Shown here: positions 1,616 to 40,313 of the stretch, piece after piece | Layout: each line of letters starts with the position of its first letter | Position numbering within the stretch: position 1 is the first letter of the stretch | NCBI GenBank assembly: GCA_016711505.1 | Contig: JADJSV010000002.1 | Span: 199,674-263,673 of the forward strand | Direction of reading: 5' to 3' | DNA: 64,000 nucleotides | Source: Bacteroidota bacterium | GTDB taxonomy: Bacteria; Bacteroidota; Bacteroidia; AKYH767-A; 2013-40CM-41-45 | Position numbers and translations under genes: made by a program | The notes under the pieces: generated by a model | The model's database searches: none | The model's input: the letters and a program-made list of their open reading frames with translations, nothing else | What the model was told of the DNA's origin: nothing

Positions 1616-1662
1616 AGTGTGGGAGCTACAGGGTTCGAACCTGTGACCCTCTGCTTGTAAGG
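1616..1662 (-). repeat. 47-bp direct repeat identical to the 3' end of tRNA-Val (distal att site of the island, the displaced tRNA 3' fragment)
   Basis: agtgtgggagctacagggttcgaacctgtgaccctctgcttgtaagg is identical to 40267-40313, and the two copies diverge immediately outside. Confidence 0.85.
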
Positions 1663-1802
1663 AGGTAGCTAGTACTTGATTGTTGTTTATTGTTACTTTC
1701 CATTACTTTGCAAATGACTGATTTATAATTATATATTTTAATATGCGCTTGCTTAATTTGCATTGTTTTTTACATTTGTTGCAACCATGTTGCAACCGAC
1801 AT

Positions 1803-3025
1803 AAAAAAATGGCATCTGTAAAACTCAAACTGTTCAAAGGCAAGGTACTGAAAAACGGGGAACATCCGATAGTGATTCAGCTAATCAAAGATCGCAAACG
1901 AAAGGTAATTTCTACCGGACGGTCCTGTCCAATTGAACATTGGGATGAGAAAGAAGGATTGCCTAAAAAGCAGCATCCCAATCGTGTCCAATTGACAACT
2001 TTCCTTTTGCATAAAAAGAAAGAAGCACATGACTTACACAATACCATTGAAACTGACAAAGGTTCATCCTATTCAATGGAGGAGTTTGAAAGGAAAATAT
2101 AGAAACGAGAATAAAAAAGCATCTTTCTTTAAATATGTCGATGAATTAGTTGCAAATTTCATTGCCACTGGACGAGTCGGGAATGCCAAAATTTATAAGG
2201 ATACCAAAAGAGAAGTCTATAAATTCCGCAATGGCCTTGATTTGGCATTCACCGACATTGATCTTAAATTCCTTAAAAGCTTAGAAAATTTTTTTCCGAA
2301 CACGAGGTTATAAAGAAAATACGATGAGTGTTTTTTTCAGAACATTGAGATCGATTTATAACAAAGCCATCATTGAGAATTATGTCAAGAAAAGTCTTTA
2401 TCCATTTGACATTTTTAAAGTTTCACAGTTTGATACAAAAACTCAAAAGAGAGCATTGTCTCAAATAGACATAAAAAGTCTAATTGAATATTACCCTGCC
2501 TTAGACAATCCACTCTTCAAATCTTATAGCTATTTTATGTTCAGCTTTTACATGATGGGAATGAATTTTCATGACATGGCTTTTTTAGAATGGGATCAGA
2601 TTAGTTCCGAAAAATTATCATACATAAGAGCAAAAACTAGAAAACATTTTGTAGTAAAGATTCTTCCTCCAGCTCAATCAATAATAGATATTTTCAAGAT
2701 AGCAAAAGAAGGTAAATATGTATTTCCGATTTTCAATGAATTAAAACATACGACTCCGCAATCCAAACATAACAGAATTAAAAAAGTTCTTAAAATGTAC
2801 AATAAAGATTTGAAAGAAATTGGAAGTGCATTAGAGATTAAAACACCTTTGACTTCTTATGTTGCCAGGCATACATGGGCAACTAGTATGAAAAAACTAG
2901 GCGCCTCAGTAGGAATTATTAGCGAAGGATTGGGACATGACTCTGAAGAGACAACTCAAATTTACTTAGATAGTTTTGGCAATGACGTTATGGATAAAGC
3001 AAATGAATTGCTATTAAAAATTTGA
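1803..3025 (+). CDS. Tyrosine-type site-specific integrase (Bacteroidetes phage/ICE integrase family). It is split into 3 frames, with two frameshifts near 2030-2100 and 2313-2324.
   Basis: Three consecutive ORFs (1743-2102, 2029-2313, 2324-3025) in frames 0/1/2 together give ~407 aa. The C-terminal catalytic region reads '...VARHTWATSMKKLGASVGIISEGLGHDSEETTQIYL' (R..H..R...Y motif region). The second junction lies at T7 homopolymers. Confidence 0.8.
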
Positions 3026-3258
3026 TTACCCTAAAATGGCGAATTTAGCCATAAAATTATATTCGTCGAGTTAATTTTTTAATTGAAGTGATATCATTAA
3101 AAAATAACTTCATAATTACTCCAGAAACGGATAAGGGTTTTTTCTTAAAATTCAATGAAAATTTATAATTTTCATTTGATTTTTTATTTAATGTTGAAAA
3201 CCTACTTTGTAAGAAACGAATCATCTTTTAATAATTTTACCTTTGCAGCCGATTAAAT

Positions 3259-4442
3259 TTGGAAAACCTCAGACATCTGTTAGGGTATACAAGAATCATT
3301 AAATCATGGGTAACAATAAATTTAAAAAATCTAATGAGGATTTTCTTAGTCATTACTATGTGCTTGGCTATTATTACATCAAGAGCTGTAACAGCCACGG
3401 TCAAAGGTGCACTTCCATCTGTTCTTACCGAATGTTCCGGTTTAGACTTTAATGGAAATTCGTCCTTTTGGACACATAATGATTCGTGGGGTGATGATCA
3501 ACTTTATCGAATATCATCAACTGGAAATCTCCAACAAACGATTACAATCAATGGGGCAAATAATCGTAATTGGGAAGACATTACTCATGATCAGAACAGA
3601 GATCATCTATTCATAGGCGATTTCGGTAACAATGATAACGATAGAACCGACCTCAAAATATATAAGATCCCATATCCGAATGCTTCAACCACATTTTCAA
3701 CAGCTGAAATCATCGAATTTACATTTTCTGATCAAGAAGATTTTCCTTCCGCTTGGATGAATTTTGATGTCGAAGCATTTTTTCATTTCAACAATCGTTT
3801 ATATTTATTTACAAAGGCCGACGGTTCGGCTGTGGGTTACACAAAGATGTACTCTCTTTCTCAAAATTCTGGACCTCATATTGCTAATCTGGTTGATAGT
3901 TTTTATACAAATGACCGTACTACTTCCGCTACCATAAGTCCCGACGGAAACTCTATGATATTAATGTCTAATTCTCACATTCATATTTTTAAGAATTTTA
4001 GCGGTACAGATTTCTTCGGTGGACAGCATACGCAATTAAATATAAGCGGATCGTGGACACAGAAGGAAGGAATTTGTTTACAAGTAATAACGAAGTTCAT
4101 TTAACAGATGAAAATACAGGTTCTGGCAACAATCTATATTATCTCAATCTGGCAAGTTATATACCAACTTCAACTACAACGAGTGTAGATGAAAATATAA
4201 ATTTGGAAGTTGATATTTTTCCGAATCCTACTACACAATATGTAAACATGCGTTTTGAGGAGAATTTGAAAATTTTGGAAGTAAAAGTTTCTGATGTTTC
4301 CGGAAAGTTAATCGATTCTCATCTTTTCAATAGTGTGCAGGAAATTAAATTGGACCTTGGCAAACTCAATCCCGGTCTTTATTTTTGCAACATTTATTCT
4401 AACGGAATTTTAATAAGGACAGAAAATATTTTAAAGCATTAG
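3259..4442 (+). CDS. Secreted beta-propeller-like protein with a T9SS (Por) C-terminal sorting domain. There is a frameshift near 4053-4104, and the true start is probably the signal peptide near 3334.
   Basis: ORFs 3259-4104 and 4053-4442 lie in different frames. The C-terminus reads '...DIFPNPTTQYVNMRF...KVSDVSGKLI...GLYFCNIYSNGILIRTENI', a typical T9SS CTD. Confidence 0.6.
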
Positions 4443-4482
4443 CACATTCAATCTAATTTAACCTTCCTAAAATAAAATAATC

Positions 4483-4731
4483 ATGAAGAAAATAACTTTT
4501 GCTCTTGTAGTTTCGATAGGAATACTCTTTGGCTGCAATAGCAATACACCAAATGAGGATACTAAAAATCAAAAAGCAGAACACAAACATGGCGATCATA
4601 ATGATGGCAAGCATGAACATAGTGATGGGGCCATTCACGAAAATGAAGATTCTGTAAAACACGGAGGATTTGATGCCGAAAAAGATTCGTCACATCATGA
4701 GCATGAATCACACAAAGGCCATGATCATTAA
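4483..4731 (+). CDS. Small His-rich lipoprotein, putatively metal-binding
   Basis: Lipoprotein signal (LFGC). The mature part is extremely His/Asp/Glu-rich (HKHGDHNDGKHEHSDG...HHEHESHKGHDH), and the gene sits beside the Cu ATPase. Confidence 0.55.
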   Translation: MKKITFALVVSIGILFGCNSNTPNEDTKNQKAEHKHGDHNDGKHEHSDGAIHENEDSVKHGGFDAEKDSSHHEHESHKGHDH

Positions 4732-4781
4732 TCGGATATGTAAAGCAAGCGGATATGAATCACTTGTTTTTAAAATTTCTA

Positions 4782-4833
4782 TTAATCTAAATTCTTAATT
4801 TTAAGCATGTACTTAAAATTAAGAATTTAGATT
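4782..4833. terminator. Perfect 23-bp inverted repeat (taatctaaattcttaattttaag / cttaaaattaagaatttagatta) with a 6-nt loop. Probably an intrinsic terminator or operator between 4483-4731 and 4855-5070.
   Basis: Read directly from the sequence. Confidence 0.45.
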
Positions 4834-4854
4834 AAACTTTGAATATCTTTTAAA

Positions 4855-5502: not shown

Positions 5503-7449
5503 CTATGAAATCTTCAAAAACCTAGCATTAAAAGCCACAATAATAGTACTTAAACTCATCAAAACTGCACCTGCTGCCGGATTAAGCATTATTCCAAACA
5601 TGCCCGCTGCCAATGGAATAGCAACTACATTATATCCGGTAGCCCATATTAGATTTTGAACCATTTTCCTGTAGGTGGCCTTTCCAAAAAGAATAAGACT
5701 GACAATGTCTTCAGGATTGCTGTTTACTAAAACGATTCCTGCTGTCTCCGCTGCAATATCGCTTCCACTTCCAACTGCAATGCCGACATCTGCTTGCGCT
5801 AAAGCAGGAGCATCATTAACACCATCCCCGGCCATTGCAATGTACTCACCCTTTTGTTGTAGTTCTTTGATCTTGTCAAGTTTTTGATGTGGTAGAACTT
5901 CAGCATAATAACCATCCATATTTAATTGCCGGCTGACACTTTCAGCGACTTTATTATTATCGCCTGTTAAAAGGATCGATTTTATTTTGGCAACATGTAG
6001 TCTTTCAATTGCTCTACCTGATTCCGGACGTATTTCATCGGCAAGAGATATAAATCCACTTACTTTATCATTAACTAATACATACACAACCGTTTCATTT
6101 GGTTGACTGTCTTTAAGTAACATTTCAGGATAATTTTTCTGAATAAATGCCGGACTGGAAACTAAAACTTTAGAGTTGTTTATAATTCCAGTGATACCTT
6201 GCCCTGTAATAGCTTTAAACTCAGAAACAGGAAGTGGGTTCAATTTTCTTACATTTGCCTTTTTAACTATCCCTGTGGCAATTGGATGTTCGGAATTTTG
6301 TTCAAGTGAAAAAGCCATTTGAAGTATTAACTCATCATTGACAGACGAATCAAATGAACCATACCGGATCACATTGAAATTTCCAAAAGTAAGTGTACCC
6401 GTTTTATCGAATATAACTGTGGTAACCTTTCTGGAATTTTCAAATGCTGTTCTGTTTTTGATCAACAAACCATGTTTTGCAGACAAGGAGGTAGATTTTG
6501 CAACTACTAATGGCACAGCTAAGCCTAATGCATGTGGACAGCAAATTACTATTACTGTAACCATTCTTTCCATTGCAAATGCCAATGACTCATTTGCAAT
6601 AGACCACCAATAAAAGAAAGTAGATATACCTGCAGCTAAAGCTACGATAGTTAAAATTCTTGCCGCTTTGTCAGCGAGTAATTGTGTTTTGGATTTTGTC
6701 TTTTGGGCATCATTGACTAACTTAATAACACTTGCAAGATAAGAGTCTTTCGAAGGATGTGTGACAGAAATTTTTAAGGAACCATTTCCATTGATAGAAC
6801 CTGCAATCACTTTTTCCCCCTTTTGCTTTTTCACGGGGACCGATTCACCTGTAAGCATTGATTCGTTAATATAGCTTTCTCCATCTGAAATAATTCCATC
6901 GGCTCCAATCTTTTCTCCGGGTTTGATTAGAATCAGGTCGCCGATATTTAAGGAATCAACTTTAACTTCGTGGGTCATTTCACCTTTAATTAAATGAGCG
7001 CTTGATGGTAATAATTGTACCAGCAGTTCCAATTCTCTTGAGGCCCCGGCAATAGATTTCATTTCTATCCAATGTCCAAGTAACATAATTAGAATAAGTG
7101 TACATAGTTCCCAAAAGAAATCCATCCCTTGTAAACCAAATACAGTAGCAACACTATAAGCATACGCGACAGTGATAGCAATCGCAATCAAGGTCATCAT
7201 TCCAAAAGTTCTTTGCTGGAACTCATCAACAAGACCTTTCAGGAAAGGAAATCCTCCATATACAAAAACCACAGAGGATAAAGAGAAGAGAACATAAATT
7301 GAACCTGAAAAAGAAAAATCAAAACCAAACCATTTTTGGATCATAGGCGAAAGCAACATAACCGGAATAGTAAGGAATAGCGTTACATAAAACCTACGTT
7401 TAAAATCCTCGATCATCATTTTATGATGGTCATGGTGCATCATTCCCAT
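5503..7449 (-). CDS. Heavy-metal-translocating P1B-type ATPase, CopB-like (copper). The His-rich N-terminal leader is encoded in another frame at 7450-7516.
   Basis: Motifs TGES, DKTGTLT and GDGVNDAPAL are present, with CPH in TM6 and MSLST in TM8. The N-terminus reads MGMMHHDHH. Upstream, in an alternate frame, lies MEHQHQGHNNVEHSNH. Confidence 0.9.
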   Translation of the reverse strand: MGMMHHDHHKMMIEDFKRRFYVTLFLTIPVMLLSPMIQKWFGFDFSFSGSIYVLFSLSSVVFVYGGFPFLKGLVDEFQQRTFGMMTLIAIAITVAYAYSVATVFGLQGMDFFWELCTLILIMLLGHWIEMKSIAGASRELELLVQLLPSSAHLIKGEMTHEVKVDSLNIGDLILIKPGEKIGADGIISDGESYINESMLTGESVPVKKQKGEKVIAGSINGNGSLKISVTHPSKDSYLASVIKLVNDAQKTKSKTQLLADKAARILTIVALAAGISTFFYWWSIANESLAFAMERMVTVIVICCPHALGLAVPLVVAKSTSLSAKHGLLIKNRTAFENSRKVTTVIFDKTGTLTFGNFNVIRYGSFDSSVNDELILQMAFSLEQNSEHPIATGIVKKANVRKLNPLPVSEFKAITGQGITGIINNSKVLVSSPAFIQKNYPEMLLKDSQPNETVVYVLVNDKVSGFISLADEIRPESGRAIERLHVAKIKSILLTGDNNKVAESVSRQLNMDGYYAEVLPHQKLDKIKELQQKGEYIAMAGDGVNDAPALAQADVGIAVGSGSDIAAETAGIVLVNSNPEDIVSLILFGKATYRKMVQNLIWATGYNVVAIPLAAGMFGIMLNPAAGAVLMSLSTIIVAFNARFLKIS

Positions 7450-8158: not shown

Positions 8159-9427
8159 TTATTCTTTCAACTGCGCTTCACTTAAATGCCTGTAAGCATT
8201 TTCTACCATAACAATTCCATCATCTACAATTACACCAATTGCCAAAGCAATTCCCGTAAGTGACATGATGTTGGAAGAAAACCCTAGAAGATTTAAGAGA
8301 ATAAAACTTGATGCAACCGAAACAGGAATTTGAATGAGAATTATAATTGCGCTTCGCCAATGGAAAAGAAAAATTAAAATGACTATAGTAACACTAATAA
8401 ACACTTCAACCAGTGTTCCCTTTACTGAACTAATAGCTTCTTCAATTAATCCACTTCTGTCATAATTAATTTTAAATTTCACGCCTTCAGGTAAACCTTT
8501 TTGTAATTCAGCCATTTTTGCCTTTACGTTTTTTATAACCTCATCAGCGTTTTCTCCGTATCGCATTACTACAATTCCACCGACTTTTTCGCCTTCTCCG
8601 TTTTCGTCAAAAATTCCGTATCGGATATCGCCACCCATTTGCACCGACCCAACATCTTTAATTCTTATGGGAACATTATTGGAAGTGCTAAGTGAAATAT
8701 TTTCAATTTCACCGATTGATTTAATGTAACCCAAACCTCGCACGATATATGACTTATCGCTCATTTCAAATTTTCGTCCTCCAACATCATTGTTATTTGA
8801 TTTTACCGCTTGCAAAACGTCCATCATTGAGAGATTAAAGAAGTTCAGTTTCACAGGGTCAATAATTACCTGATACTGTTTTTGAAAACCTCCGAAGGAG
8901 GCAACTTCACTTACTCCGGGAACTGTTTGTAAAGAAAACTTGATATACCAATCCTGCAAAGCACGTTGTTCGCCAAGATCATATCCTTTGGCATCTAACG
9001 AATACCAAAAGATATGGCCAACGCCTGTTCCATCGGGGCCGAGTGTGGGTGAAATTCCTTCAGGTAAAAGTTTCTGTGCAAAATTTAACCGCTCTGCTAC
9101 CCTCGTTCTAGCCCAATAAATGTCAACATTGTCCTCAAAAACTAGATATACGAAACTCATTCCGAACATAGATGAACCTCGGATATTTTTAAGTTTCGCA
9201 ATGCCTTGCAAATTTGAAACGAGTGGATATGTAATCTGGTCCTCGATTACCTGCGGGCTTCTCCCCATCCATTCAGAAAAAACAATTACCTGATTTTCGG
9301 ATAAGTCAGGTATTGCATCTACGGGGTTGTGCTGCACTTCGTAAAGTCCCCACCCTAACATGCCTGCTGCAAAAAGTAATACAACAAAGCGATTGCGCAA
9401 TGAGATTGATATAAGACGTTCAACCAT
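8159..9427 (-). CDS. czcA: CzcA/CusA-family heavy-metal RND efflux pump, N-terminal fragment only (residues 1 to about 420). It ends in the TM4-TM5 loop.
   Basis: The N-terminus 'NRFVVLLFAAGMLGWG...NPVDAIPDLSENQVIVFSEW' and the end '...AIGVIVDDGIVMVENAYRHLSE' align to CusA residues ~1-415. A stop follows, and then the next gene starts. Confidence 0.85.
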   Translation of the reverse strand: MVERLISISLRNRFVVLLFAAGMLGWGLYEVQHNPVDAIPDLSENQVIVFSEWMGRSPQVIEDQITYPLVSNLQGIAKLKNIRGSSMFGMSFVYLVFEDNVDIYWARTRVAERLNFAQKLLPEGISPTLGPDGTGVGHIFWYSLDAKGYDLGEQRALQDWYIKFSLQTVPGVSEVASFGGFQKQYQVIIDPVKLNFFNLSMMDVLQAVKSNNNDVGGRKFEMSDKSYIVRGLGYIKSIGEIENISLSTSNNVPIRIKDVGSVQMGGDIRYGIFDENGEGEKVGGIVVMRYGENADEVIKNVKAKMAELQKGLPEGVKFKINYDRSGLIEEAISSVKGTLVEVFISVTIVILIFLFHWRSAIIILIQIPVSVASSFILLNLLGFSSNIMSLTGIALAIGVIVDDGIVMVENAYRHLSEAQLKE

Positions 9428-9438
9428 TGTTGTTTGAA

Positions 9439-9708
9439 TTAGTGTTTTTTCATTTCAGATAATTCCATTCCACACTTTGGGCAATCTCCCGGTTTATCGG
9501 ATAGTACTTCTAGGTCCATCACACATTGGTAGAATGCTTCTCCATTTTTCAACATCGTTGTGTCAATATTGAAGTTTTGTGATGTGTTTTGACCTTGATT
9601 TGTTGTGGAATCGGGCAAAGTTCCTTTTTCACTTCTGTTTGATGAACTATTGCAGGCGCCTAGTAATATTATACTATTTAATGCTAGTAAAAGAATTGCA
9701 TTTTTCAT
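9439..9708 (-). CDS. Small lipoprotein with a C-terminal heavy-metal-binding domain (HMBD, CxxxDxxV...CPKCGM)
   Basis: Lipobox LLGAC. The C-terminus 'YQCVMDLEVLSDKPGDCPKCGMEL' matches the HMBD found at the N-termini of CusB-like adaptors. Confidence 0.65.
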   Translation of the reverse strand: MKNAILLLALNSIILLGACNSSSNRSEKGTLPDSTTNQGQNTSQNFNIDTTMLKNGEAFYQCVMDLEVLSDKPGDCPKCGMELSEMKKH

Positions 9709-9730
9709 TTATACTATTTACTTAGAGAGT

Positions 9731-10887
9731 TTACATTTTCATTCCCGGCATTTCTTGATGGCCTTCCATAGGGTTCGCTCCTTTTTTAAAAATATATTCG
9801 CTGTTCAATAAGTATGCACCTTTCACAACAACAACATCTCCTTCTTTCAATCCATCAATTATTTCAATTTGGCTACTGTTCTGCATACCTACTGTTACCA
9901 TTTTATTTTCAAACACTCCATCATTGTTTCTCACCCACACATTTGCTCCTTTACTATCCTGAACAATTGCATCTAAAGGCAGCACATAAGATTTTTTCTT
10001 TTCTGTTTGTAAGTTTATATTAGCTAACATTCCGGGCTTTATTTGTCTTGATGAATTAGTTAACTGAAATCTTGCCAAAACATACCGTTGTGGCGCTTGC
10101 ACTTGTGGATCAATAAAAACTACTTTCCCCGAAAACAATTCTTGAGTTGCAGCAGGAATAGAAAAACTAGCTTCCGTTCCAATTTTTATATAAGTTAAAT
10201 AGGGGAGATAGACTTGGGCTTCTACCCATAGTGCATTTATTGAAGCGAGTCGGAAAGAGTAGCGCCTGCTGAGACGTAATTCCCTTCATTAACAGATATT
10301 TCGCTCACAAAGCCCTCCGTTTTCGCAAACACCGGAATATTTTGCAGAATTTGCTTGGAGGTATTAAGTTGATCGATTTGCAATTCGCTCATTCCAAATA
10401 ACAGCAACTTATTTTTAGTGCTTTCGATAAAATCACCAGTTGAAAATGACTTTTGTAGAGCTAGCAAATATTCTTCTTGCGCCAAGTTTAAATCTTCACT
10501 GTAGATTTCATAAAGCATCTGACCTCTGCTAATGTATTCTCCAATGTTTCTTACGGCTAACTTTTCAATTCTTCCTTGGACTCTTGCACTGATAGCATCT
10601 GAAAGATTTTGGTCCACTGTAACTTTTCCTGTAAGGGTAATTTCTTTAGCCAACTCATGAACACGAACTGTGTCATATGTAATGTTACCTAATTGGATTT
10701 GTTGGGAACTTAGTTTTATTTGTCCCGTTTTGAGATTATTCCTTTTTACCTTAATCAGTTTCATGTGGCAAATTGGACAGTTGCCAGCTTTATTTTCTAT
10801 CACTTGCGGATCCATTGAGCATGTGAAATACTCATCTGATCCCGCCATCTCGGCCTGATTATTATTTTTTTTGCATGAAATTAGCAA
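9731..10887 (-). CDS. RND efflux membrane-fusion protein (CusB/CzcB-like) with an N-terminal HMBD. It is split into two frames (10237-10887 and 9731-10138).
   Basis: N-terminal 'YFTCSMDPQVIENKAGNCPICHMKL' (HMBD), followed by HlyD-family adaptor sequence and a C-terminal beta-barrel domain ORF in another frame. Confidence 0.7.
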
Positions 10888-10937
10888 CAGAATGGATGCT
10901 AAAAAAAAGCATCATGACTTGGTTTGCGATATTTATT

Positions 10938-12189
10938 TTATTTCTGTACATTATTTTCGGTTTGAATAAAGCTTTCGCTGTCTACCATAAATTGTGCATT
11001 GGCAGCAACCATTTCATTTTCTTTTAATCCGGATTTTATTTGAACCAATGAATCTGTGAAAGCTCCCGTTTGTATTAATTTAGTAACAAAACAGTTTTCT
11101 GATTTTACAAATACGATTTGATTATATCCTAAGTTTACAATTGCATTTCGTGGCAACCATATTCCCTTAATTTCTGATGAAGTAATATTAGCAGAAACCA
11201 GAGTACCTATTTTAAGTTGTCGGTCTTGGGAATTCTTCAAATACACTCTTGCTTTAATTGCAGAATAATTTTGACCGGCAACAGGTTCAATGTAACTGAT
11301 GGTGGATTGAATAACAGTAGTTGGATTTGCTTCAGTAGTGAGAGACTTTATCACCTATATTGATTAGTGCAGCATCTTGTGGAAATATATCCAACACTGC
11401 CCAAACCTGACTTATATTGTAAACCGAAAAAAATGCCTGACCACTTTGCAAATACATTCCTTCCTTAATTGAAAGTGCGGAGGTTCTTGAGGAGGAAAGA
11501 TTCTCAACTTGCATTTGTGTGGGCGATTCACTAGTTGTATTCATTCCTGAACTCATTCCATTCCCCTTGGAAGGTGCAGCAGAAGTAACTCCACTGCTAA
11601 TTCCTAAATCATGAATGTGCCCAGTATAAGGGCTGTATATTGGTAATGGATTTATCGGTTGTTTCGTGGTTTCAATTTGTTTAAGTTGTTCATTGTTTAA
11701 TCCTAGCAATTGTAATTTAGTTTTAGATGAATTGATGAGCGGAAAGTCCTTAATAGAACTGTTCAAAAGATAAATTAGATTTTGTTGTTCAGTCAAAATT
11801 TCCGGACTGTAGATATCCATGATTCGCTGACCTTTAAAAACATTTTCAAAATTGAAGCGCACATACAATTTTTCAATTCGCCCACTGAACCGTGCGCTGA
11901 TATTGTTGAGTGAGCGAGGATCGTAAACAATTACGCCTATTGCATTTAATCGGGGCGTGATCGTTTGTTGCATAGGTAGAATTGTTTTTACGTCACTAAA
12001 TACTGTTTGATTAGTTGGTTGTTCTAAGCCTTCCAACTCACTGGTCTTGTTTGCCTGAATGTGTTTGTGTTCGTCTCGGCTACTACAAGACGAGATGAAA
12101 ATCAGAATTGCAATCCCGATAAACACCGAGAAAGCAACGATCCCATTGCCTCTTGCCATGCCCTTATCGAATTTCCAATTCTTTTTCAT
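10938..12189 (-). CDS. RND efflux membrane-fusion protein (HlyD/CzcB family). There is a frameshift at the overlap 11332-11354.
   Basis: ORFs 11332-12189 and 10938-11354 overlap by 23 nt in different frames. The lipoprotein N-terminus and the adaptor coiled-coil/beta-barrel regions are both present. Confidence 0.7.
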
Positions 12190-15383: not shown

Positions 15384-15602
15384 CTATTGCTTTACAACAC
15401 TTTCCAAGGCCATGTCACACTTAGGACAATTATCTGCTTTCGCTGAAATTACTTCCAAGTGCATTGGACACTGAAAAAATGTTTTTCCCGAATCAACTTT
15501 TGACGTGTCGAGAGTAAATGTGCTTGTTGTTGATCCATCTTTTGGTGATGAACACGCTACCATTAAAACTGCAATAGCGGAAATTACAAATGCTTTTTTC
15601 AT
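15384..15602 (-). CDS. Small lipoprotein with a C-terminal heavy-metal-binding domain (HMBD), paralog of 9439-9708
   Basis: Lipobox MVACS. C-terminus 'FFQCPMHLEVISAKADNCPKCDMAL'. Confidence 0.65.
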   Translation of the reverse strand: MKKAFVISAIAVLMVACSSPKDGSTTSTFTLDTSKVDSGKTFFQCPMHLEVISAKADNCPKCDMALESVVKQ

Positions 15603-26458: not shown

Positions 26459-26465
26459 TTTAAGA

Positions 26466-30600: not shown

Positions 30601-30802
30601 GGATAGGTTACTAATTGTTCAACTTCCTGTCCGGCAAGTGTAGGACAAACAGTGATGATTTGAACTTGATTATTTGTGATGTCAGGTACTGCATCAATTG
30701 AAAGTTGGGTTGCACTCCATACGCCCCAGATTATTAGTGCAAAAGTCATCAAACCAATGATGAACTTGTTTTTATGCTAAACGCAATTATTTTATCGAGC
30801 AT
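27644..30802 (-). CDS. czcA: CzcA/CusA-family heavy-metal RND efflux pump, second copy. It is full length but lies in at least 4 frames.
   Basis: ORFs 30099-30752, 28819-30000 and 27644-28843 cover the N-terminal, middle and C-terminal parts. The true N-terminus MLDKIIAFSIK (30802) is recovered upstream in another frame at an A-run. Confidence 0.85.
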
Positions 30803-30898: not shown

Positions 30899-31222
30899 TT
30901 AACTGATTTTAGGCGGTTGCCAGATAGAAGAATTGTCTATTGAAAAAAACTGTTGATCGAAAAGAACAAAGTCCTGTAATGCAGGTTTGGCTTGGAAAGT
31001 AATATTTGGTAAGTAATGAATGTTCATTGCAGTTGAACAGCATGAACAGAAACAAAACGGACTGCACATGTCATCCTCCTCTTGATGATGTTCTGAAGCG
31101 CTCTGAACTGAAGAAGTGACATCAAGTTTATGCGAATCGCAAATGTCATTACAGGGCATGAGCATTATCGTCATCAGATAGATGACAAGTGAAAAACTAA
31201 AGATCCGCCTGAAAATGTTCAC
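30899..31222 (-). CDS. Small membrane-anchored Cys-rich protein (CSPFCFCSCCS motif, C-terminal WQPPKIS), a conserved Bacteroidetes family often found 5' of metal-efflux operons
   Basis: N-terminal TM helix. His/Glu-rich patch EHHQEEDD followed by CSPFCFCSCCS. It sits directly upstream of czcA-2. Confidence 0.45.
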   Translation of the reverse strand: MNIFRRIFSFSLVIYLMTIMLMPCNDICDSHKLDVTSSVQSASEHHQEEDDMCSPFCFCSCCSTAMNIHYLPNITFQAKPALQDFVLFDQQFFSIDNSSIWQPPKIS

Positions 31223-31333
31223 AAGGCAAAAGTAGTGAAAGTTCCTAAATTACCAATTTTTGAAAGAAAAGTGCTTTTTCATGTATTTTTCATTACTGTT
31301 TGCTCTTGTTTCGTACCTTTAATAATCTAAAAA

Positions 31334-31700
31334 ATGAAAACCATGAACGCATTCCATAAAATGAAGGTTATTTTCACCTTACTTTTCTTATTTACGATTT
31401 CGAATTTCATACAAGCAAAAGATGCAGATACACTTGTCATCAAAACCAACATCTATTGTGATCATTGCAAAGAATGTGAAAGTTGTGGAGGAAAAATTGA
31501 ACGTGATTTAACTTTTGATAAAGGTATTGAAGCAGTTCAACTTGATGAAAAAAGCAATGACTATCAAAGTAACTTATAACTCCAAAAAGACCAACCCTGA
31601 AGCTATTCGACAACTAATTTCAAAATATGGTTTTGATGCTGATGAAGTAAAAGCTGATCCGGTTGCTTATTCTAAGTTGGATGAGTGTTGCAAGAAATAA
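31334..31700 (+). CDS. Secreted heavy-metal-associated (HMA)-domain protein. There is a frameshift at an A6 run.
   Basis: Signal peptide. 'LVIKTNIYCDHCKECESCGGKIE' is a Bacteroidetes HMA-like CxxC region. A second frame gives 'MTIKVTYNSKKTNPEAIRQLISKYGFDADEV...LDECCKK'. Confidence 0.6.
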
Positions 31701-32686: not shown

Positions 32687-32740
32687 ATAACCAAAAAGGC
32701 AAAACAATAAAGTGTTTTGCCTTTTTTAATCTTAAGCAAA

Positions 32741-34288: not shown

Positions 34289-37200
34289 ACGCACCCATCT
34301 ATTCTTTTCCAATAATATTGATTTCTGAATCGGTCAAAGTGTAAAGGTTATTTACAATATCGTCTATTTCCTTTTCAAGATGTTTGGTTTCAGCAAGTGG
34401 ATTTTCTTTCTTTATTAGTAATATTTTTAACGATAGGTTCTAATAAAGTATTTCTCACTTAAATCTTTAAAAACAGGCAGCTCCTTAAACTCTCCAATCT
34501 TGATCTTTGGAAATAATGCATCAAATTCATTACTCGAATATTTAAAATAAGTGGAAATTAATTTTGAACCAAGCAGGCCTTGAACTCCGTAAAAATACTT
34601 CTTATTTTCTTTATTCGGCGTAGCAATAAAAACACTTTGATCAATAATAAATTTCTCTTCAATTAATGTACAATTCAATTTTTCGCCACATTTGCCTCAT
34701 AATTAATCTCAATCCTTGAAAATATTTCATCTCACGAGGAGCGGCTAACCATTCACCATAACTGATATAATGTTTTTTATCCCAATTGTACGAATAACTA
34801 TTTACATGTTTTCCTCTTAATTCTGGAATGAAGCTGGATCTTTTTGTGATCAGAATGGTAAACCTTATTTTGATTACTTCCTCAGATTGGCCCCTATATT
34901 TATCTAAGGATTTACCCCTCGTGTTATTTCAGCAATGTCTTGTAACTTAATTGATTTTGCTCTAATCTTTTCTAATAATTTAAACACTTCATTCTGCGAT
35001 TCAACATCTATAACTAGTCTTTCATTTTCGCTAAACCGCTTCTGTTCTATGGAATGCTTAATAAATGGAACTTGATTTTTGAATGAGTATACTTTTACGT
35101 TGGAGTCTCCTTTGCCTTTTAAGGCAAGAAAAATTAATGTGTCGACCGAAGCTTCTTGGAATACACTTTCTAAATTTGGAAAAATTGATTGAATTTTGAC
35201 AGCATTTAAAATGTATTCTCTGCATTTTGTAAATGTGATATTTTTCAACCAAGAATTAGGTGTTATAAATGAGATCGATAGTTTTCTTTTAATATGGATA
35301 TCCCTTTTTCAATGAAGCTAACATATAAGTCAAGTTGGTATTGAGAAGTTATGTAATTGTCACTCAAATATTGAATGATGTTTTTATTAAATGACTTACT
35401 TGAAATGTAAGGTGGATTCCCTACAATAACATCAAACCTTCAAAACTCCCTTCATCGTCCAACACTTCAGGAAATTCAAACCTCCACTCAAAAGCATTCC
35501 GATAAATCGCATTGCTTTTGATATCTTCTATTATGGTTTCTTGTTTACTTATTTTCTCTGTAAGTTTTTTAACGTCGTCTTCAAATAGCTTTTTTTCTTT
35601 GCGCAGTTTTTTCAAATAGACCAGTTTGCATGGTTAAGTTAACAAGTTCGCCTTTCCATTTGGCAAGATCTTTAAACTCCTTGCTGTTATTATTTATCTC
35701 AATTCTAAAATCTGATTTAATTGAATTAATTATTTGTTCCAACCCGTTTTACTTCTTTATCATGGGCGTTCTTATAATCTTGAACAAATCCCTTTGTATT
35801 GATTGATGTTATATTTGATGCTTTTCAACGCCTTGCTTAAATCAGCATCTAATGCGAAACGACTTACAAGCGAGTTCCCGCATTTGATATTGATATCAAT
35901 GTTAGGAAGAGTTTCCAGTTCTTTGAATTTGCTTTCTTCGGTGAAATAAGCATTTTTAAGAAGTTCGATCCACAAACGTAAACGACAAATCTTTACCGAA
36001 TTTTGATTGATGTCAACACCGAATAAACAATTTTCAATGATGATTTGCTTTTCATGAAAAAGTGATTTCTGTACTCGCTGAATTTCTTTGTTAATGCTTC
36101 CATTGTTGACCTGATATTCAAAAATATCTTGTCCTTCGTTATAGGTAACAATTAATTCGTCGTTTTCAATTTCTATTTCATATCCCGATAAACGAACGCC
36201 TTTGTTATCTGCAAGAATTCCTAGCTCTGCCTTTATTGAAATGATCTCGTTTAAAGAAGAAACTAAAAAGTGACCGGAACCGACGGCGGGATCGCAAATG
36301 TGCATACCGTTTATTATGTCGTTGAATTCAAGAACCTCTTTAGCTGTTCTACGATCTGCCATGTAGTTTTTTAAATCTTCGAAAACTTCACAATTCCAAC
36401 CATAAGCATCCTTGAATTTCTGAACTACCGCCAAGCGAATAGATTCCCTGCACATGTACATGGTAATAAATCCCGGTGTAAAGATTGAACCGTCTTTATA
36501 GCCATTTATTTTTTCAAAGATCAAACCTAAGACAGAAGCATTAATTAATGTCTTACTGTCTTCTTGAATTTCCTCCGCACCTTCAGAAGCAAAATCATAA
36601 GCTTCAAGAAAATCGAAAAGGTATTGCAAGCTATTTAAGCTCTTTGCGATTGGTTTATTTTTTGCGTCACGCAATACCGTTCCGCTATATAGATCCAGTT
36701 GTTGAGAATCATCGAGGCTATTTATTTTGATCGTTTGATCTTCAAGTTCGCTGATTTCAAATAGCGAACTATTCAGATAAGGAATGCTACCGAATTTTTT
36801 ATTTATTATTTCATTCCGGTCAGACTGTCGTTTGGCCAATACTTGAAAGAAGAGTTTATACAACTCATCGTATTGCGGAATCTTTGTGTAATTTAAAAAC
36901 TTATACGATTGATCGCCTTTGTGGTATTTGATCAATTGCGCTTCCAGTAATTTTAAAAACAAGATCCTGTTGATCCACGTTATGCAAAGTTCTAATGACA
37001 GATTGAACAAGCGATCTTGTCTTGTATCACCATAACTACTCAAGTCCGGAACTTTGTGTAAACTATCTTCTAAATCAAGAATGGTAATCGCATTTTCAAG
37101 CAGCGATCCACCATCTCTTTTTCCTTCTTGCTTTCTGCGAATTAACTTCTTGCTACCTTCTTTTACTTCTTCTAACCCTATTATGTGCAACAATTCAGAA

Positions 37201-37955
37201 TAGAAACCTTTATCGAGTGAATTACTATCGTTAGCAAATTGAATTTTTAATAGATGTATAGGGCTGAAGATCTTATATAGCGCTATGAGTTTTGTATCAT
37301 CTGCCTTATCGTTATTCTTCAACGGTTTTTCATAATCGCGAATGTCAAACCAAGTAAAAAGAACATCTTCCTTTAATTCATCTAAGAATGGTTTTGCGAT
37401 TTCTTTGTAAAACAAATCGGTGTTGGTACTTACTTTTTGACCCCTTTCCCAATCAGTCAAGGCTTTGACTAGCTTAGCGTTTTTCGCAAACAATCGTTCA
37501 AAAACTGAGGCATCAAAAATAAACCATTCGTAAATATTGGTAATTACAAGATGTCGAATATCAATATTCTTTCCGGTGATCCTTTCGCGCAAATAGTAAA
37601 GGATGAGTTCATGCATGGCTTTGGCATTGAGATTTTGCCTTGACACCATGTCTGTCTTATTGGTTGGTCGCTTAACTTCAAACAAAACACCACTAGGTGC
37701 TTTTGCATCCTTGCCTGTATGAATAACAAAATCAGTCCGGCCTTTCGTAGCAACAAGATACTCTTGCTTGTACCAAGTCTCCTTTAGAAAATCCATCAAA
37801 TGAATTTTCACATTCTCTTCGCTTTCCTTTTCATCAATTTGTCCAAGCAACTTAATCAAGTTGCCTTTGACCGATTCAATGTCCGGGCGTTTTGGTTTTA
37901 CTAATCGATAAGCTTTATTGAGGGCCTTCTTTAGGCTAATTTCGTGCAAGGTCAT
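34289..37955 (-). pseudogene. Single-polypeptide Type IIG/IIL restriction-modification enzyme (MmeI/Eco57I-like: N-terminal PD-ExK nuclease, gamma-class N6-adenine MTase, C-terminal TRD). It is fragmented into at least 6 frames.
   Basis: The 727-aa ORF carries 'TDFVIHTG...VLFEVKRP' (PD-ExK), motif I 'DPAVGSGHFL' and 'NIKCGNSL'. Downstream fragments in other frames give 'FEWRFEFPEVLDDEG...FDVIVGNPPYI' (motif IV), 'FIPELRGKHVNSYSYNWDKKHYISYGEW' and 'QGLLGSKLISTYFKY...', and the tail 'LYTLTDSEINIIGKE'. Confidence 0.7.
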
Positions 37956-38488: not shown

Positions 38489-38947
38489 TTATATAGTTTT
38501 TTTGTGAATTAAAATTACGTCTGGTTTTACTAAGAAGGTTTCGTATTCCCCGTATACTACACACTGAATATTTAAGCGAGAATTAAATGGAAATCTATAA
38601 GTATATGCAGAGAAGTTGAAACCGAACTTTTGAAGTTCTTGGATCTGATAATGATTTCCTTCTGGTTTAAGCATTAAAGAATCTAGAATTTTTTTATTTG
38701 ATTCTAAAATATCTTTGGTTGCATCTTTATTATATTCTTCTTGTACCGGATGTGGCTGTTGCTTTTTTACTGCTCTATGAGTTGCATTATAAAAGTCCTG
38801 ATAACATTTGTTGGAACAATAATCTCTTCCTTTATTATAAACCATGTGAGGTTTTTTGCAAGCAGGGCAAACTCTATAGTTTGGTGAATCTGGATCTAGC
38901 TTTATTTGTCTAGAGTCCTTGTTAAACTTCTTATCGTCCATTTTCAA
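38489..38947 (-). CDS. Hypothetical protein with a zinc-ribbon-like CPACKK...C..KC motif
   Basis: ORF only. No family recognised. Confidence 0.3.
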   Translation of the reverse strand: MKMDDKKFNKDSRQIKLDPDSPNYRVCPACKKPHMVYNKGRDYCSNKCYQDFYNATHRAVKKQQPHPVQEEYNKDATKDILESNKKILDSLMLKPEGNHYQIQELQKFGFNFSAYTYRFPFNSRLNIQCVVYGEYETFLVKPDVILIHKKTI

Positions 38948-39242
38948 TTATTTCTTCTTTAGTTTTAATACGCTTTCCATTGATCCATTCTTCAATAATT
39001 TCAAGATCAAACATCAATACCTTTCCAACTTTTGAATGAGGAATGTATCGCTTATATACCCATCCATAGATAGTCGCTTTAGGCCAGCCATATAATTGAC
39101 ACAATTTTTCTATATTCACTTTCCTAGTTGATTCGGGGCGGTTAAAAGAATTAAGAATTGTAGAATCCAATTTATTTTGGATAATAGCTTCCAGTTGTTC
39201 TACACTGAGATCAATGATTCTAATATTCGAGTAGCCTGACAT
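38931..39242 (-). CDS. Helix-turn-helix DNA-binding protein, excisionase/AlpA (Xis)-like
   Basis: 'KLCQLYGWPKATIYGWVYKRYIPHSKVGKVLMFDLEIIEEWI' is a typical HTH_17/Xis domain of Bacteroidetes integrative elements. Confidence 0.6.
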   Translation of the reverse strand: MSGYSNIRIIDLSVEQLEAIIQNKLDSTILNSFNRPESTRKVNIEKLCQLYGWPKATIYGWVYKRYIPHSKVGKVLMFDLEIIEEWINGKRIKTKEEIIENGR

Positions 39243-39295
39243 GGCTCAAGATTAAGAACAATAAAAGGTCACAAAAAAGTACTTTTACAAGTACC

Positions 39296-40143
39296 TTAAA
39301 AATTTAACATTTCAATTAATCCTGGGATTGGCTTAGCAGTGGGCGCATTCGCAGATGAAATACTTTTATGAACATAATTTTCAGTTAGTTCGATTATCTC
39401 ATTTCTTTTCTGCCCTTTAAAATACCTGCAAATCCACGATTCTAAATTCTTCTTCGAATTCAAGATCAGATTTTTGTGGTGAAGTCTGTGGAATGCATCT
39501 AAAAGTTTGATGCAGGGTGCTTGAAAACTTAATGGATTTTCAATTGGATTCCCTTTCAAAAGCATTTCAAGGACTTCGTGTTCCTTAGAATCAAAATATG
39601 GTTTTAAAAGAGCATGAAATTTTGGAAGAAAATGTTCATTGATTGCAATTTCTTTAAAAACATAACTATCGACCTCGTTTTGGTCTTTGCTCCTTTTTGA
39701 ATCAACCCAATTCATTATTGCTTGTCTTCTTAAAATGCACTCATGAAAACAATTTTGCAGACTTTGTCATAAACTCCATATTGAATCATTCCAACAAACT
39801 CAATTTTATCTTTTGCATAATAATTTCCTTCAAACGCAGTAAAATGATAGTCTAAATAGGAATTGATTTTAAATACATCAATTATTGCAAGCTGAATCTG
39901 AAGAAACACGTGATACATAGTAGATCTTGGATCAATCAGAATGGGAAGCAATCTTTCCGTATTATGCTTATAAATAATTCCATTTGGTTCAGCATACAGA
40001 GGTCCTTGAAAATCTAAAATGCTAATCAAACTTTCACATTTGCTCTTCACTTTTAGATTGGTTGCTGAGGTAGATAATTCTAATAATCTCTTTCTTATTG
40101 ACGAGAGATTTAGATCATATATGTGAAATTCAATTTTGGCCAT
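39296..40143 (-). CDS. Hypothetical protein(s), island-borne. Two consecutive ORFs (39730-40143, 39296-39715) in different frames, possibly one ~276-aa frameshifted gene.
   Basis: ORFs are separated by 15 nt with a frame change. No motif recognised. Confidence 0.3.
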
Positions 40144-40230
40144 TATTAATATTTTATTGAAGAAAAGAAAAAAAATAGAGTTTAGAAAATCAAAAATGTT
40201 TAAACCATGTTTAAACCACCTTAAAAAGAA

Positions 40231-40257
40231 AAAGCCTCTACATCTCTGTAAAGGCTT
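40231..40257 (-). terminator. Imperfect hairpin plus T-run immediately 3' of the intact tRNA-Val. The island-borne sequence parallels the displaced terminator at 1572-1610.
   Basis: aagcctttacagagatgtagaggctt followed by ttttt on the minus strand. It resembles the 1599-1623 region. Confidence 0.35.
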
Positions 40258-40266
40258 GATTTCTAA

Positions 40267-40313
40267 AGTGTGGGAGCTACAGGGTTCGAACCTGTGACCC
40301 TCTGCTTGTAAGG
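40267..40313 (-). repeat. 47-bp direct repeat forming the 3' end of the intact tRNA-Val (tRNA-proximal att site)
   Basis: Identical to 1616-1662. Confidence 0.85.

What the first reader, a model, noticed from the sequence alone, without database searches (positions are those of the whole stretch)
1616..40313. Integrative heavy-metal-resistance island at tRNA-Val, 38.7 kb, with a reconstituted tRNA 3' end and its own terminator
An exact 47-bp direct repeat of the tRNA-Val 3' end brackets 38.7 kb. The displaced original 3' fragment keeps a hairpin+T7 terminator at 1572-1610, and the island supplies a similar, weaker one at 40231-40257. The integrase is at the distal end and an Xis-like HTH gene is at the proximal end. 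No tra/mob genes are visible, so this looks like a non-conjugative (perhaps mobilisable) island packed with Cu/Zn/Cd resistance determinants.
Basis: partly seen in the sequence, partly recalled or inferred. Interest (0 to 1): 0.6.

Follow-up and report, generated by a model that had tools for sequence, protein, structure and literature searches.

The report
Metal-resistance island inserted at tRNA-Val
A 38.6-kb block of copper/zinc/cadmium-resistance genes sits in the end of a tRNA-Val gene of an uncultured wastewater Bacteroidota bacterium, put there by its own integrase; this is an ordinary kind of mobile island, and its many "broken" genes are most likely sequencing errors.

Summary
An exact 47-bp direct repeat of the tRNA-Val(TAC) 3' end (1616-1662 / 40267-40313) brackets 38.6 kb.

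- A metagenome contig joins the left flank directly to an intact tRNA-Val (empty site).
- Other strains carry different islands at the same site.
- The island has a tyrosine integrase at the far end and an HTH_17 (Xis-like) gene at the tRNA end.
- Paired arm-type repeats occur only beside the att cores.
- Each side of the split tRNA has a terminator hairpin.
- No relaxase, T4SS or phage genes were found.

The cargo comprises Cu and Zn/Cd P-type ATPases, two RND efflux systems, a multicopper oxidase, metal-binding proteins and a type IIG restriction-modification gene.

- In this assembly the integrase is split over three frames and about 15 island genes are frame-broken. Against short-read contigs the island shows 12 indels to 9 substitutions, mostly in homopolymers, while 11 kb of right flank has none. 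This is most likely long-read consensus error, not decay.
- One CusA gene is cleanly split and permuted. That is unexplained.
- GC and tetranucleotide composition show no difference from the flank.
- The island terminator is not weaker than the chromosomal one.

Verdict: a new member of a known kind, of modest interest.

The parts
1572..1608 (-). Original chromosomal terminator of tRNA-Val (hairpin + T7), now separated from the tRNA by the island
   Evidence: -17.7 kcal/mol, z -5.6. It directly follows the intact tRNA in the empty-site contig L012.
1616..1662 (-). attR core: displaced 3' fragment of tRNA-Val (47-bp direct repeat copy)
1777..1798 (+). Arm-type site pair TGTTGCAACC x2 with 11-bp spacing, just upstream of the integrase start
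   Evidence: The motif TGTTKMAACC occurs only 4 times in 64 kb, all in the att arms. It is identical in the variant island L018 and present on the tRNA-side arm of L010.
1806..3025 (+). Tyrosine integrase (404 aa once two +1 homopolymer insertions at 2094-2097 and 2289-2295 are removed); split over three frames in this assembly
   Evidence: P0001, 404 aa, 99% identical, intact; catalytic residues conserved.
3259..4442 (+). Secreted protein with T9SS C-terminal sorting domain (378 aa intact in L013; split 281+129 here)
4483..4731 (+). His-rich small lipoprotein-like protein (probable metal binder)
   Evidence: sequence; present in L013-L015. Function inferred.
5503..7449 (-). Cu-type P1B ATPase (CopA-like), intact
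   Evidence: TIGR01511, 575 bits vs cut-off 397.
8159..9427 (-). CusA RND pump, N-terminal half only (residues 1-422)
   Evidence: 75.8% identical to P0121 residues 1-417.
9439..9708 (-). Small HMBD heavy-metal-binding protein
9731..12189 (-). Two CusB-type membrane-fusion proteins, each split by one frameshift (10887-10237 + 10138-9731; 12189-11332 + 11354-10938)
12164..13390 (-). Outer-membrane efflux protein (OEP), intact
13380..15326 (-). CusA RND pump, C-terminal half only (residues 423-1048 at 15278-13401), lying upstream of its own N-half
15384..15602 (-). Second small HMBD protein
17269..18883 (-). Multicopper oxidase in three pieces
   Evidence: Cu-oxidase_3, Cu-oxidase, Cu-oxidase_2 in successive ORFs.
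22683..24590 (-). Zn/Cd-type P1B ATPase (ZntA/CadA-like), intact
   Evidence: TIGR01512, 480 bits vs cut-off 313.5.
25358..30752 (-). Second RND system: CzcA-like pump (3 pieces, 30752-27644), OEP (3 pieces, 27665-26466), MFP (26458-25358, intact)
30899..31700 (.). DUF6660 protein (minus strand) and HMA-domain metallochaperone-like protein (plus strand; 118 aa intact in L001, split here)
34427..37955 (-). Type IIG restriction-modification enzyme (DUF7149/DUF7814/MmeI_Mtase/TaqI_C), fragmented here; 1084+ aa open in short-read contig L005
38260..38947 (-). Conserved module genes: zinc-ribbon-like 150-aa protein and 75-aa protein (disturbed by a 1-bp deletion at 38453)
38931..39242 (-). HTH_17 protein, candidate excisionase / recombination directionality factor
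39296..40143 (-). Conserved 282-aa protein of unknown fold (split 137+139 aa by a 1-bp deletion at 39759), always next to the HTH_17 gene
40197..40217 (+). Arm-type site pair TGTTTAAACC x2 with 11-bp spacing
40232..40257 (-). Island-supplied terminator for the reconstituted tRNA-Val
   Evidence: -17.4 kcal/mol, z -4.7. Conserved in all island variants, including L010.
40267..40313 (-). attL core (47-bp repeat copy) forming the 3' part of the functional tRNA
40270..40345 (-). tRNA-Val(TAC), intact

Best explanation
This is a site-specific integrative genomic island of an uncultured Bacteroidota bacterium found in wastewater and activated-sludge metagenomes.

Mechanism. A tyrosine integrase with an N-terminal arm-binding domain recombined a circular element (attP) with the 3' end of tRNA-Val (attB) over a 43-47-bp identical core. 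The island brought its own copy of the tRNA 3' end and its own terminator, so the tRNA stays functional. The original 3' fragment and terminator were displaced 38.6 kb away. After integration the integrase lies at the far end. The near end carries a conserved four-gene set: a 282-aa protein of unknown fold, an HTH_17 Xis-like protein, a zinc-ribbon-like protein and a 75-aa protein. Excision would need the integrase plus probably the HTH_17 protein, and perhaps the other module proteins.

Cargo. Metal efflux and detoxification genes (Cu and Zn/Cd P-type ATPases, two RND systems, a multicopper oxidase, metal-binding proteins) plus a type IIG restriction-modification enzyme.

Transfer. The element has no relaxase or mating-pore genes, so any transfer between cells must rely on a helper element or on transformation/transduction.

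Frameshifts. The many frameshifts in this copy, including two in the integrase, are most likely long-read consensus errors confined to a strain-variable region, not real pseudogenes.

Shown versus inferred. Shown: the repeat, the empty site, the gene content, the site polymorphism, the arm repeats and the indel pattern. Inferred: the roles of the HTH_17 protein and the 282-aa protein, present-day mobility, and the error explanation.
For: - Repeat and tRNA.
- Empty site: L012 joins the left flank to a complete tRNA-Val. L011, L008/L009 and L015 break at the repeat.
- One JGI sample (3300012533) holds the empty site (L012), the window-type island (L016) and a variant island (L020).
- Integrase: three expected Pfam domains. 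After two single-base repairs it is 99% identical to the intact 404-aa P0001 from short-read contigs with the same flank. The catalytic R/K/YxxR/H/Y residues are invariant in the family.
- Arm-type repeats: TGTTKMAACC occurs 4 times in 64 kb, all as tandem pairs in the two att arms (1.0 expected), and they are conserved in the variant islands.
- Terminators.
- Cargo.
- Conserved module: the 28x-aa gene followed by HTH_17 in L001-L007 and L010, and in distant relatives contiguous with the integrase gene.
- No relaxase, T4SS or phage families.
- Error pattern against short-read contigs: island 12 indels / 9 substitutions (1663-4976) and 10 / 76 (34708-40266); right flank 0 indels / 82-107 substitutions. 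The indels are 1-2 bp, mostly in homopolymers, and include intergenic positions. All gene breaks are frame changes. The left flank is also frame-broken. The related MAG L001 shows the same island-confined indels.
- The published pipeline for MAGs of this kind is a Nanopore assembly with a single Illumina polishing round, and its authors warn of platform errors.
Against: - No excised circle (attP junction) was found, but only the viral collection and the fetched loci could be searched.
- The empty site rests on one contig that ends 38 nt beyond the repeat.
- There is no compositional contrast with the flank.
- As the sequence stands, the integrase is not translatable.
- I do not know which assembly the window comes from, so the long-read-error explanation is an inference from the pattern of differences.
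- The CusA permutation is not explained by homopolymer errors.
- The function of the HTH_17 protein as an excisionase is inferred from family membership only (32 bits vs cut-off 27).
Confidence: 0.8

Rival explanations
1. The island is a genuinely decayed, immobilised relic (CIME-like). Its integrase and most cargo genes are real pseudogenes that accumulated slippage mutations under relaxed selection, and only the att repeats remain functional.
For: The integrase is split over three frames and about 15 island genes are frame-broken, while 23 kb of right flank has intact long ORFs. The window has private 1-bp deletions relative to every other assembly (38453, 39759). The CusA gene is structurally rearranged.
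Against: The indel-to-substitution ratio is 12:9 over 3.3 kb against three independent short-read contigs, far above what neutral evolution gives (my knowledge: roughly 1:10 or lower in bacteria). The indels also fall in intergenic homopolymers (3075, 3099, 3180). The broken zone extends into the chromosomal left-flank gene. A second assembly (L001) shows its own, different set of homopolymer indels in the same region. Disruptions seen are frame changes, though nonsense substitutions were not specifically screened.
Confidence: 0.17
2. The element is an integrative mobilizable element (NBU-like) whose transfer functions are hidden. The conserved 282-aa protein and its neighbours would act as a non-canonical mobilisation or replication module with a cryptic oriT, piggy-backing on Bacteroidota conjugative elements.
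For: The four-gene set is conserved next to the integrase or att site across relatives only 27-37% identical. NBU1 excision needs several element genes besides integrase and RDF (PMC5704250). The site turns over between strains, so some transfer route exists.
Confidence: 0.2
3. The repeat is a coincidental partial duplication of the tRNA gene, and the DNA between the copies is ordinary chromosome shared by all relatives.
For: There is no GC or tetranucleotide difference between island and flank.
Against: An empty-site contig exists. Contigs break at the repeat. Gene content between the repeats differs among strains of the same species (metal cargo vs Gabija/AbiE/pAgo cargo). An integrase and arm-type repeats sit at the ends.
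Confidence: 0.01
4. The element is a prophage or phage satellite.
For: It has tRNA integration, an integrase and an Xis-like HTH gene.
Against: No capsid, terminase, portal, tail, lysis or replication family was found among about 50 ORFs. The cargo is metal resistance. There was no hit for the attP junction in the viral contig collection.
Confidence: 0.02

Closest known systems
NBU1 / NBU2 and related Bacteroidota integrative mobilizable elements (Tn6031, MTnPi4)
   Same: A tyrosine integrase inserts the element into the 3' end of a tRNA gene (Leu, Ser, Pro) without inactivating it. A small RDF and further element-encoded genes take part in excision. There is no mating pore of their own (PMC5704250).
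   Different: Those elements encode a MobP relaxase and an oriT; none was found here. The target here is tRNA-Val. The size is 38.6 kb, against 5-15 kb for most IMEs. The accessory proteins (the 282-aa family) have no detected similarity to annotated families. Direct sequence comparison with IntN1 or Orf2x was not done.
Riemerella anatipestifer 10K genomic island
   Same: A Bacteroidota genomic island with a 53-bp direct repeat at a tRNA gene (Arg) and an IntN1-like tyrosine integrase. It is present in some strains and absent in others, and lacks transfer genes (PMC6764341).
   Different: There the integrase lies next to the tRNA and suffices alone for integration and excision. Here it lies at the distal end and is accompanied by a conserved four-gene module. 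The cargo also differs.
Tn5520-like integrases of Cytophagia/Bacteroidia
   Same: The Cytophaga hutchinsonii homologue P0071 (44% identical, same three domains) is annotated 'Tn5520-like integrase (Transfer factor)'.
   Different: According to the review, Tn5520 has low target specificity (it prefers AT-rich DNA) and no cargo. This element is tRNA-specific and cargo-rich.
Defence islands / integration hot spots at tRNA genes
   Same: The same att site and closely related integration module carry Gabija, AbiE, short pAgo + SIR2 and a type IIG R-M in other strains. The window copy keeps the type IIG R-M.
   Different: The window copy is dominated by metal-resistance cargo instead of defence systems.

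Membership tests
tRNA-targeting integrative genomic island (tyrosine-recombinase type) | Direct repeats made of the 3' end of a tRNA gene flank the element, and the tRNA remains intact | tested here: met
   47-bp exact repeat at 1616-1662 / 40267-40313; intact tRNA-Val at 40270-40345.
tRNA-targeting integrative genomic island (tyrosine-recombinase type) | Element-encoded tyrosine integrase with catalytic residues | tested here: met
   Three Pfam domains. After two 1-bp repairs the protein is 99% identical to the intact P0001. R, K, YxxR, H and Y are invariant in 15 family members. Caveat: the frame is broken in this assembly.
tRNA-targeting integrative genomic island (tyrosine-recombinase type) | Unoccupied attB exists in the population | tested here: met
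   L012 joins left flank, complete tRNA-Val and 6 nt of right flank. This is a single contig; contig breaks at the repeat give supporting evidence.
tRNA-targeting integrative genomic island (tyrosine-recombinase type) | Excised circular form (attP junction) | tested here: inconclusive
   No match in the viral contigs or in the 55 fetched loci. Read data and the large metagenome collection could not be searched for it.
tRNA-targeting integrative genomic island (tyrosine-recombinase type) | Arm-type integrase binding sites flanking the core (expected for integrases with an arm-binding domain) | tested here: met
   Tandem TGTTGCAACC x2 (1777-1798) and TGTTTAAACC x2 (40197-40217). These are the only four matches in 64 kb, and they are conserved in the variants. 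Binding itself was not tested.
Integrative mobilizable element (IME, NBU1-like) | Own relaxase and oriT | tested here: not met
   No relaxase/Mob family in Pfam or NCBIfam for any island ORF or for the conserved module. No relaxase-like fold for the 282-aa protein. An oriT cannot be recognised with these tools.
Integrative mobilizable element (IME, NBU1-like) | Mobilisation in trans by a conjugative helper | not testable with these tools
   Needs mating experiments.
Integrative conjugative element (ICE) | Type IV secretion / mating-pore genes, coupling protein, relaxase | tested here: not met
   None found among about 50 ORFs scanned.
Prophage or phage satellite | Virion, packaging or lysis genes | tested here: not met
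   None in the Pfam scans. PHROGs was not run.
CIME / decayed island | att sites retained but integrase and transfer genes lost or inactivated | tested here: inconclusive
   The integrase is frame-broken at two homopolymers, but the pattern of differences points to consensus error. Read-level data are needed.
Heavy-metal resistance determinants (P1B ATPases, HME-RND systems, multicopper oxidase) | Family-specific profile matches above curated cut-offs | tested here: met
   TIGR01511 (575 vs 397), TIGR01512 (480 vs 313.5), ACR_tran, OEP, HlyD_D23, HMBD and Cu-oxidase_1/2/3. CusA is 75% identical to annotated CusA/SilA proteins. Metal specificity is inferred, not measured.

The most novel reading that the evidence does not exclude
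The conserved module beside the att site (a 282-aa protein with a confidently predicted fold that matches nothing solved, plus HTH_17, a zinc-ribbon-like protein and a 75-aa protein) travels with this integrase family across distant Bacteroidota elements. It might be a previously undescribed excision, maintenance or transfer apparatus that lets relaxase-less islands swap cargo (metal resistance in one strain; pAgo, Gabija and AbiE defence in another) at one tRNA-Val hot spot. The clean circular permutation of the CusA operon could then be a footprint of circle-mediated cargo rearrangement, not a misassembly.
Probability: 0.2. Interest if true: 0.5.

Novelty: new member of a known kind. Interest (0 to 1): 0.3.

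Why it matters
Biologically, this is one more example of how tRNA genes serve as docking sites for cargo-swapping islands. Here, strains of one abundant wastewater Bacteroidota species carry either metal-resistance or anti-phage cargo at the same site, and these coexist with the empty site in one sample. That makes it a convenient natural system for studying island turnover in an uncultured lineage.

Practically, it is a cautionary case. In a long-read-derived assembly, a strain-variable island can look like a graveyard of pseudogenes, with a 'dead' integrase, when the frameshifts are probably consensus errors. Automated calls of 'degraded island' or 'non-functional resistance genes' from such assemblies would be wrong.

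The 282-aa family (312 relatives, no annotation, no structural match) is a small, well-defined target for anyone studying integration modules in Bacteroidota.

Tried and rejected
- Exact-protein look-ups for four intact island proteins (5506-7449, 22686-24590, 15717-17147, 25361-26458) found nothing. No independent assembly therefore covers 6.2-30.2 kb, and the CusA permutation could not be cross-checked.
- The single genome-collection scan, using the chromosomal neighbour BrkB, found no tRNA-Val synteny outside the species. It gave only a coarse placement: Bacteroidota; the nearest relative is 94% identical.
- Composition tests (GC, tetranucleotide) showed no island signal.
- The attP junction search in viral contigs and fetched loci was negative.
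- I first read the split genes as evidence of an immobilised, decaying island. I downgraded this after the indel/substitution counts against short-read contigs and after finding the left flank also broken.
- I looked for repeats, IS remnants or shared sequence at the two CusA breakpoints. Nothing was found beyond a possible 4-nt AAAG microhomology.
- The GTTTAAACC motif in the chromosomal terminator loop resembles the arm repeat, but it is not conserved in strains L017, L020 and L023, so I do not claim it as a binding site.

Full report
**1. The observation**

ARAGORN and Rfam each find a single tRNA in the window, tRNA-Val(TAC), at 40270-40345 on the minus strand. Its 3' part plus 3 nt downstream (40267-40313) is repeated exactly at 1616-1662. 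The repeat finder reports the pair as 52 nt at 96% identity, with 47 nt exact. No other repeat in the window comes close.

Downstream of the displaced fragment, reading on the minus strand, is a 13-bp-stem hairpin followed by T7 (1572-1608). Downstream of the intact tRNA is an 11-pair hairpin with a T-rich tail (40232-40257). Their folding energies are -17.7 and -17.4 kcal/mol, and no shuffle folds as well as either. The island's terminator is therefore similar to the chromosomal one, not weaker.

**2. Is it an insertion?**

Yes.

- I scanned the metagenome collection with the chromosomal terminator hairpin, which lies outside the island. This returned two contigs.
- L012 (JGI Ga0138256_10031258) reads left flank, terminator, complete tRNA-Val and 6 nt of right flank, with no island.
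- L011 ends exactly at the last base of the repeat.
- Contigs L008/L009 start at the tRNA 3' end, and L015 starts inside the repeat. This is the behaviour expected when an assembly graph forks at an att site.
- The chromosomal neighbour (BrkB family, 40559-41458) is found as an identical protein in 118 blocks of the collection. The ten contigs fetched are 98-99% identical to the window over 40.3-51.4 kb, so they come from the same species.
- To the left of tRNA-Val these contigs carry island DNA, but not always the same island. L002/L003 have extra genes. L010 diverges completely 115 bp into the island and encodes only 35%- and 58%-identical versions of the first two island genes.
- At the other end, the integrase P0001 (99% identical to the window's) and the integrase P0002 (86%) both sit next to the same left flank, but with different cargo.
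- One JGI sample (3300012533) contains the empty site (L012), the window-type island (L016) and the variant island joined to the left flank (L020).

Caveat: the empty site rests on one contig that extends only 38 nt beyond the repeat. The site polymorphism is independent support.

**3. Composition**

GC content is 0.350 in the island against 0.362 in the right flank. Tetranucleotide distances between island and flank chunks are no larger than distances within each group (permutation p = 0.15). The island therefore probably circulates among hosts of similar composition. The absence of a signal does not argue against insertion, given section 2.

**4. Integration machinery**

*Integrase.* ORFs 1743-2102, 2029-2313 and 2324-3025 lie in three different frames and carry, in order, Arm-DNA-bind_5, Phage_int_SAM_5 and Phage_integrase. 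Removing one A from the run at 2094-2097 and one T from the run at 2289-2295 gives a 404-aa protein. It is 99% identical over its full length to P0001, an intact 404-aa protein on short-read contigs with the same flank. In an alignment of 15 family members the catalytic set (R, K, Y-V-A-R, H, Y) is invariant.

*Arm-type repeats.* The reconstructed attP carries paired direct repeats with 11-bp spacing on both arms: TGTTGCAACC x2 at 1777-1798, just upstream of the integrase start, and TGTTTAAACC x2 at 40197-40217. The degenerate motif TGTTKMAACC occurs four times in 64 kb (1.0 expected), and all four are these sites. The left pair is identical in the island with the 86% integrase, and L010 has TGTTGCAACC x2 on its tRNA-side arm. 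These are good candidates for arm-type integrase sites. Binding is an inference.

*Module at the tRNA end.* This end holds a conserved set of four genes:
- a 282-aa protein, split here into 137 + 139 aa by a 1-bp deletion at 39759;
- an HTH_17 protein of 103 aa (32 bits against a cut-off of 27);
- a zinc-ribbon-like 150-aa protein;
- a 75-aa protein.

An exhaustive HMMER search finds 312 relatives of the 282-aa protein, none annotated. In a 37%-identical relative the order is integrase, 292 aa, HTH_17, 121 aa, 71 aa, all contiguous. In a 27%-identical relative it is 282 aa, HTH_17, 157 aa. The set therefore belongs to the element's own machinery and is not cargo.

**5. Cargo**

The order below follows the window from left to right:
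- a T9SS-sorted protein;
- a His-rich small protein;
- a Cu-type P1B ATPase (TIGR01511, 575 bits against cut-off 397);
- a CusA-type RND system with OEP, two CusB-type MFPs and two small HMBD proteins;
- T9SS-sorted proteins;
- a multicopper oxidase;
- beta-propeller proteins;
- two methyltransferases;
- a Zn/Cd-type P1B ATPase (TIGR01512, 480 against 313.5);
- a second RND system (CzcA-like, OEP, MFP);
- DUF6660, an HMA-domain protein and DUF347;
- a type IIG restriction-modification enzyme.

No conjugation, mobilisation or phage family was found. 'Cu/Zn/Cd resistance island, non-conjugative' is therefore a fair description of the gene content. Metal specificities are inferred from family assignments.

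**6. The broken genes**

In the window, the integrase, the 378-aa T9SS protein, both CusB genes, the multicopper oxidase, the second RND pump, its OEP, the HMA protein, DUF347, the R-M enzyme, the zinc-ribbon gene and the 282-aa gene are all split. Where a full-length relative could be mapped onto the window (both RND pumps and both CusB genes), each break is a frame change between adjacent segments.

Differences from short-read contigs:

| Window region | Indels | Substitutions |
|---|---|---|
| Island, 1663-4976 (3.3 kb) | 12 | 9 |
| Island, 34708-40266 | 10 | 76 |
| Right flank, 40314-51458 | 0 | 82-107 |

Further points:
- Nearly all indels are 1-2 bp length changes in A/T runs, and several lie in intergenic DNA (3075, 3099, 3180).
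- A second assembly of the species, L001, differs from the window by 39 such indels in 4.9 kb of island but by none in the flank.
- The left-flank gene, intact (514 aa) in L012-L014, is also frame-broken in the window. The affected zone therefore does not coincide with the island.
- Related MAG records have 'tig' contig names and Danish plant names. The study that produced such MAGs used CANU on Nanopore reads with one Illumina polishing round and `--include-unpolished`, and warns of platform errors and chimeric population bins (PMC8012365).

I conclude that the frameshifts are most likely consensus errors in a strain-variable region that escaped polishing (about 0.75-0.8), and not genuine decay (about 0.2). 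I do not know which assembly the window comes from, so this remains an inference.

**7. An unexplained rearrangement**

The CusA gene of the first RND system is in two clean halves in permuted order. Residues 423-1048 lie at 15278-13401. They are followed by OEP, MFP, MFP and HMBD, and then by residues 1-417 plus five more residues and a stop codon at 9427-8159.

- Both halves are 75.7-75.8% identical to the same full-length orthologue.
- Joined, they align end to end with many 1051-1054-aa CusA proteins and keep the native loop length.
- The native order in a relative is HMBD, CusA, OEP, MFP, MFP.
- No IS element or repeat marks the breakpoints. There is at most a 4-nt AAAG microhomology.
- No independent assembly covers this part of the island.

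The arrangement is either a real block swap or a misassembly of a tandemly amplified 7.1-kb unit. Read mapping would decide.

**8. Comparison with known systems**

The architecture is that of the tRNA-targeting integrative elements of Bacteroidota:
- NBU1 (tRNA-Leu), NBU2 (tRNA-Ser), Tn6031 (tRNA-Pro) and MTnPi4 (tRNA-Leu) are IMEs with a tyrosine integrase, an RDF and further genes needed for excision (PMC5704250).
- The Riemerella anatipestifer 10K island has a 53-bp att in tRNA-Arg and an IntN1-like integrase (PMC6764341).

This element works like them but fails the IME membership test on the relaxase. I therefore file it as an integrative genomic island of the tyrosine-recombinase type, possibly mobilisable in trans. 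In other strains the same integration module carries Gabija (GajA/GajB), AbiE, a short pAgo with its SIR2 partner, and the type IIG R-M. The site therefore behaves as a cargo-swapping hot spot.

**9. Verdict**

- there is no compositional contrast with the flank;
- the island terminator is not weaker than the chromosomal one;
- the reading frames are broken in this assembly, probably through error;
- one pump gene is permuted.

Novelty: a new member of a known kind. Interest: modest (0.3). The points of some interest are the unannotated 282-aa module protein, the metal-versus-defence cargo swap at one att site within one species, and the methodological warning about apparent pseudogenes in long-read MAG islands.

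Noticed in passing
window 8159-15326: The CusA RND pump gene is cleanly split at residue 422/423, and the two halves lie in permuted order around OEP-MFP-MFP-HMBD. Both halves are 75.7-75.8% identical to one orthologue. This is either a real block swap or a misassembled tandem amplification.
   Followed up: partly
window 53333-55266: A 7-bp tandem array (TTCACTT)n at 55197-55266 and its inverted copy at 53333-53370 bracket about 1.8 kb. The interval encodes a DUF4258 protein, a GNAT acetyltransferase and a DUF983 protein.
   Followed up: partly
window 60105-60242; L013/L014 2800-2955: A perfect 31-nt inverted repeat built of CCCGCAGAT-like units. An 87%-similar copy lies elsewhere in the genome (left of the island flank), suggesting a small dispersed repeat element.
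   Followed up: no
window 1-1615: The left-flank gene (a T9SS-sorted protein, 514 aa in L012-L014) is a mosaic relative to other strains. Blocks 100% identical alternate with a roughly 600-bp block (945-1540) that is only about 65% identical. The gene is frame-broken near 943 in the window.
   Followed up: partly
L003 678-7395; L018 15382-20781; L019 9371-11107: Variant islands at the same tRNA-Val site carry Gabija (GajA/GajB), AbiEi/AbiEii, a short prokaryotic Argonaute with a SIR2-APAZ partner, and an intact type IIG R-M. In GCA_963851665.1 the island spans about 52 kb.
   Followed up: partly
L036 1-150: In the closest other species (BrkB 94% identical) the contig starts inside tRNA-Val. 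A second tRNA-like sequence follows that shares the same 5' half but has a different anticodon loop (CTTAAGT). ARAGORN calls neither.
   Followed up: no
window 1587-1596: The loop of the chromosomal terminator hairpin contains GGTTTAAACC. It shares the 9-mer GTTTAAACC with the island's arm repeats (4 occurrences in 64 kb, all within 135 bp of an att core). The motif is not conserved in strains L017, L020 and L023, so it may be coincidence.
   Followed up: partly
window 4782-4835: A perfect 24-nt palindrome with a 6-nt spacer lies after the His-rich protein gene, probably a bidirectional terminator.
   Followed up: no
window 32860-33121: A 73-nt internal direct repeat (71% identical, 189 bp apart) lies inside the membrane-protein ORF 32717-33157, indicating an internal duplication of a transmembrane segment.
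   Followed up: no
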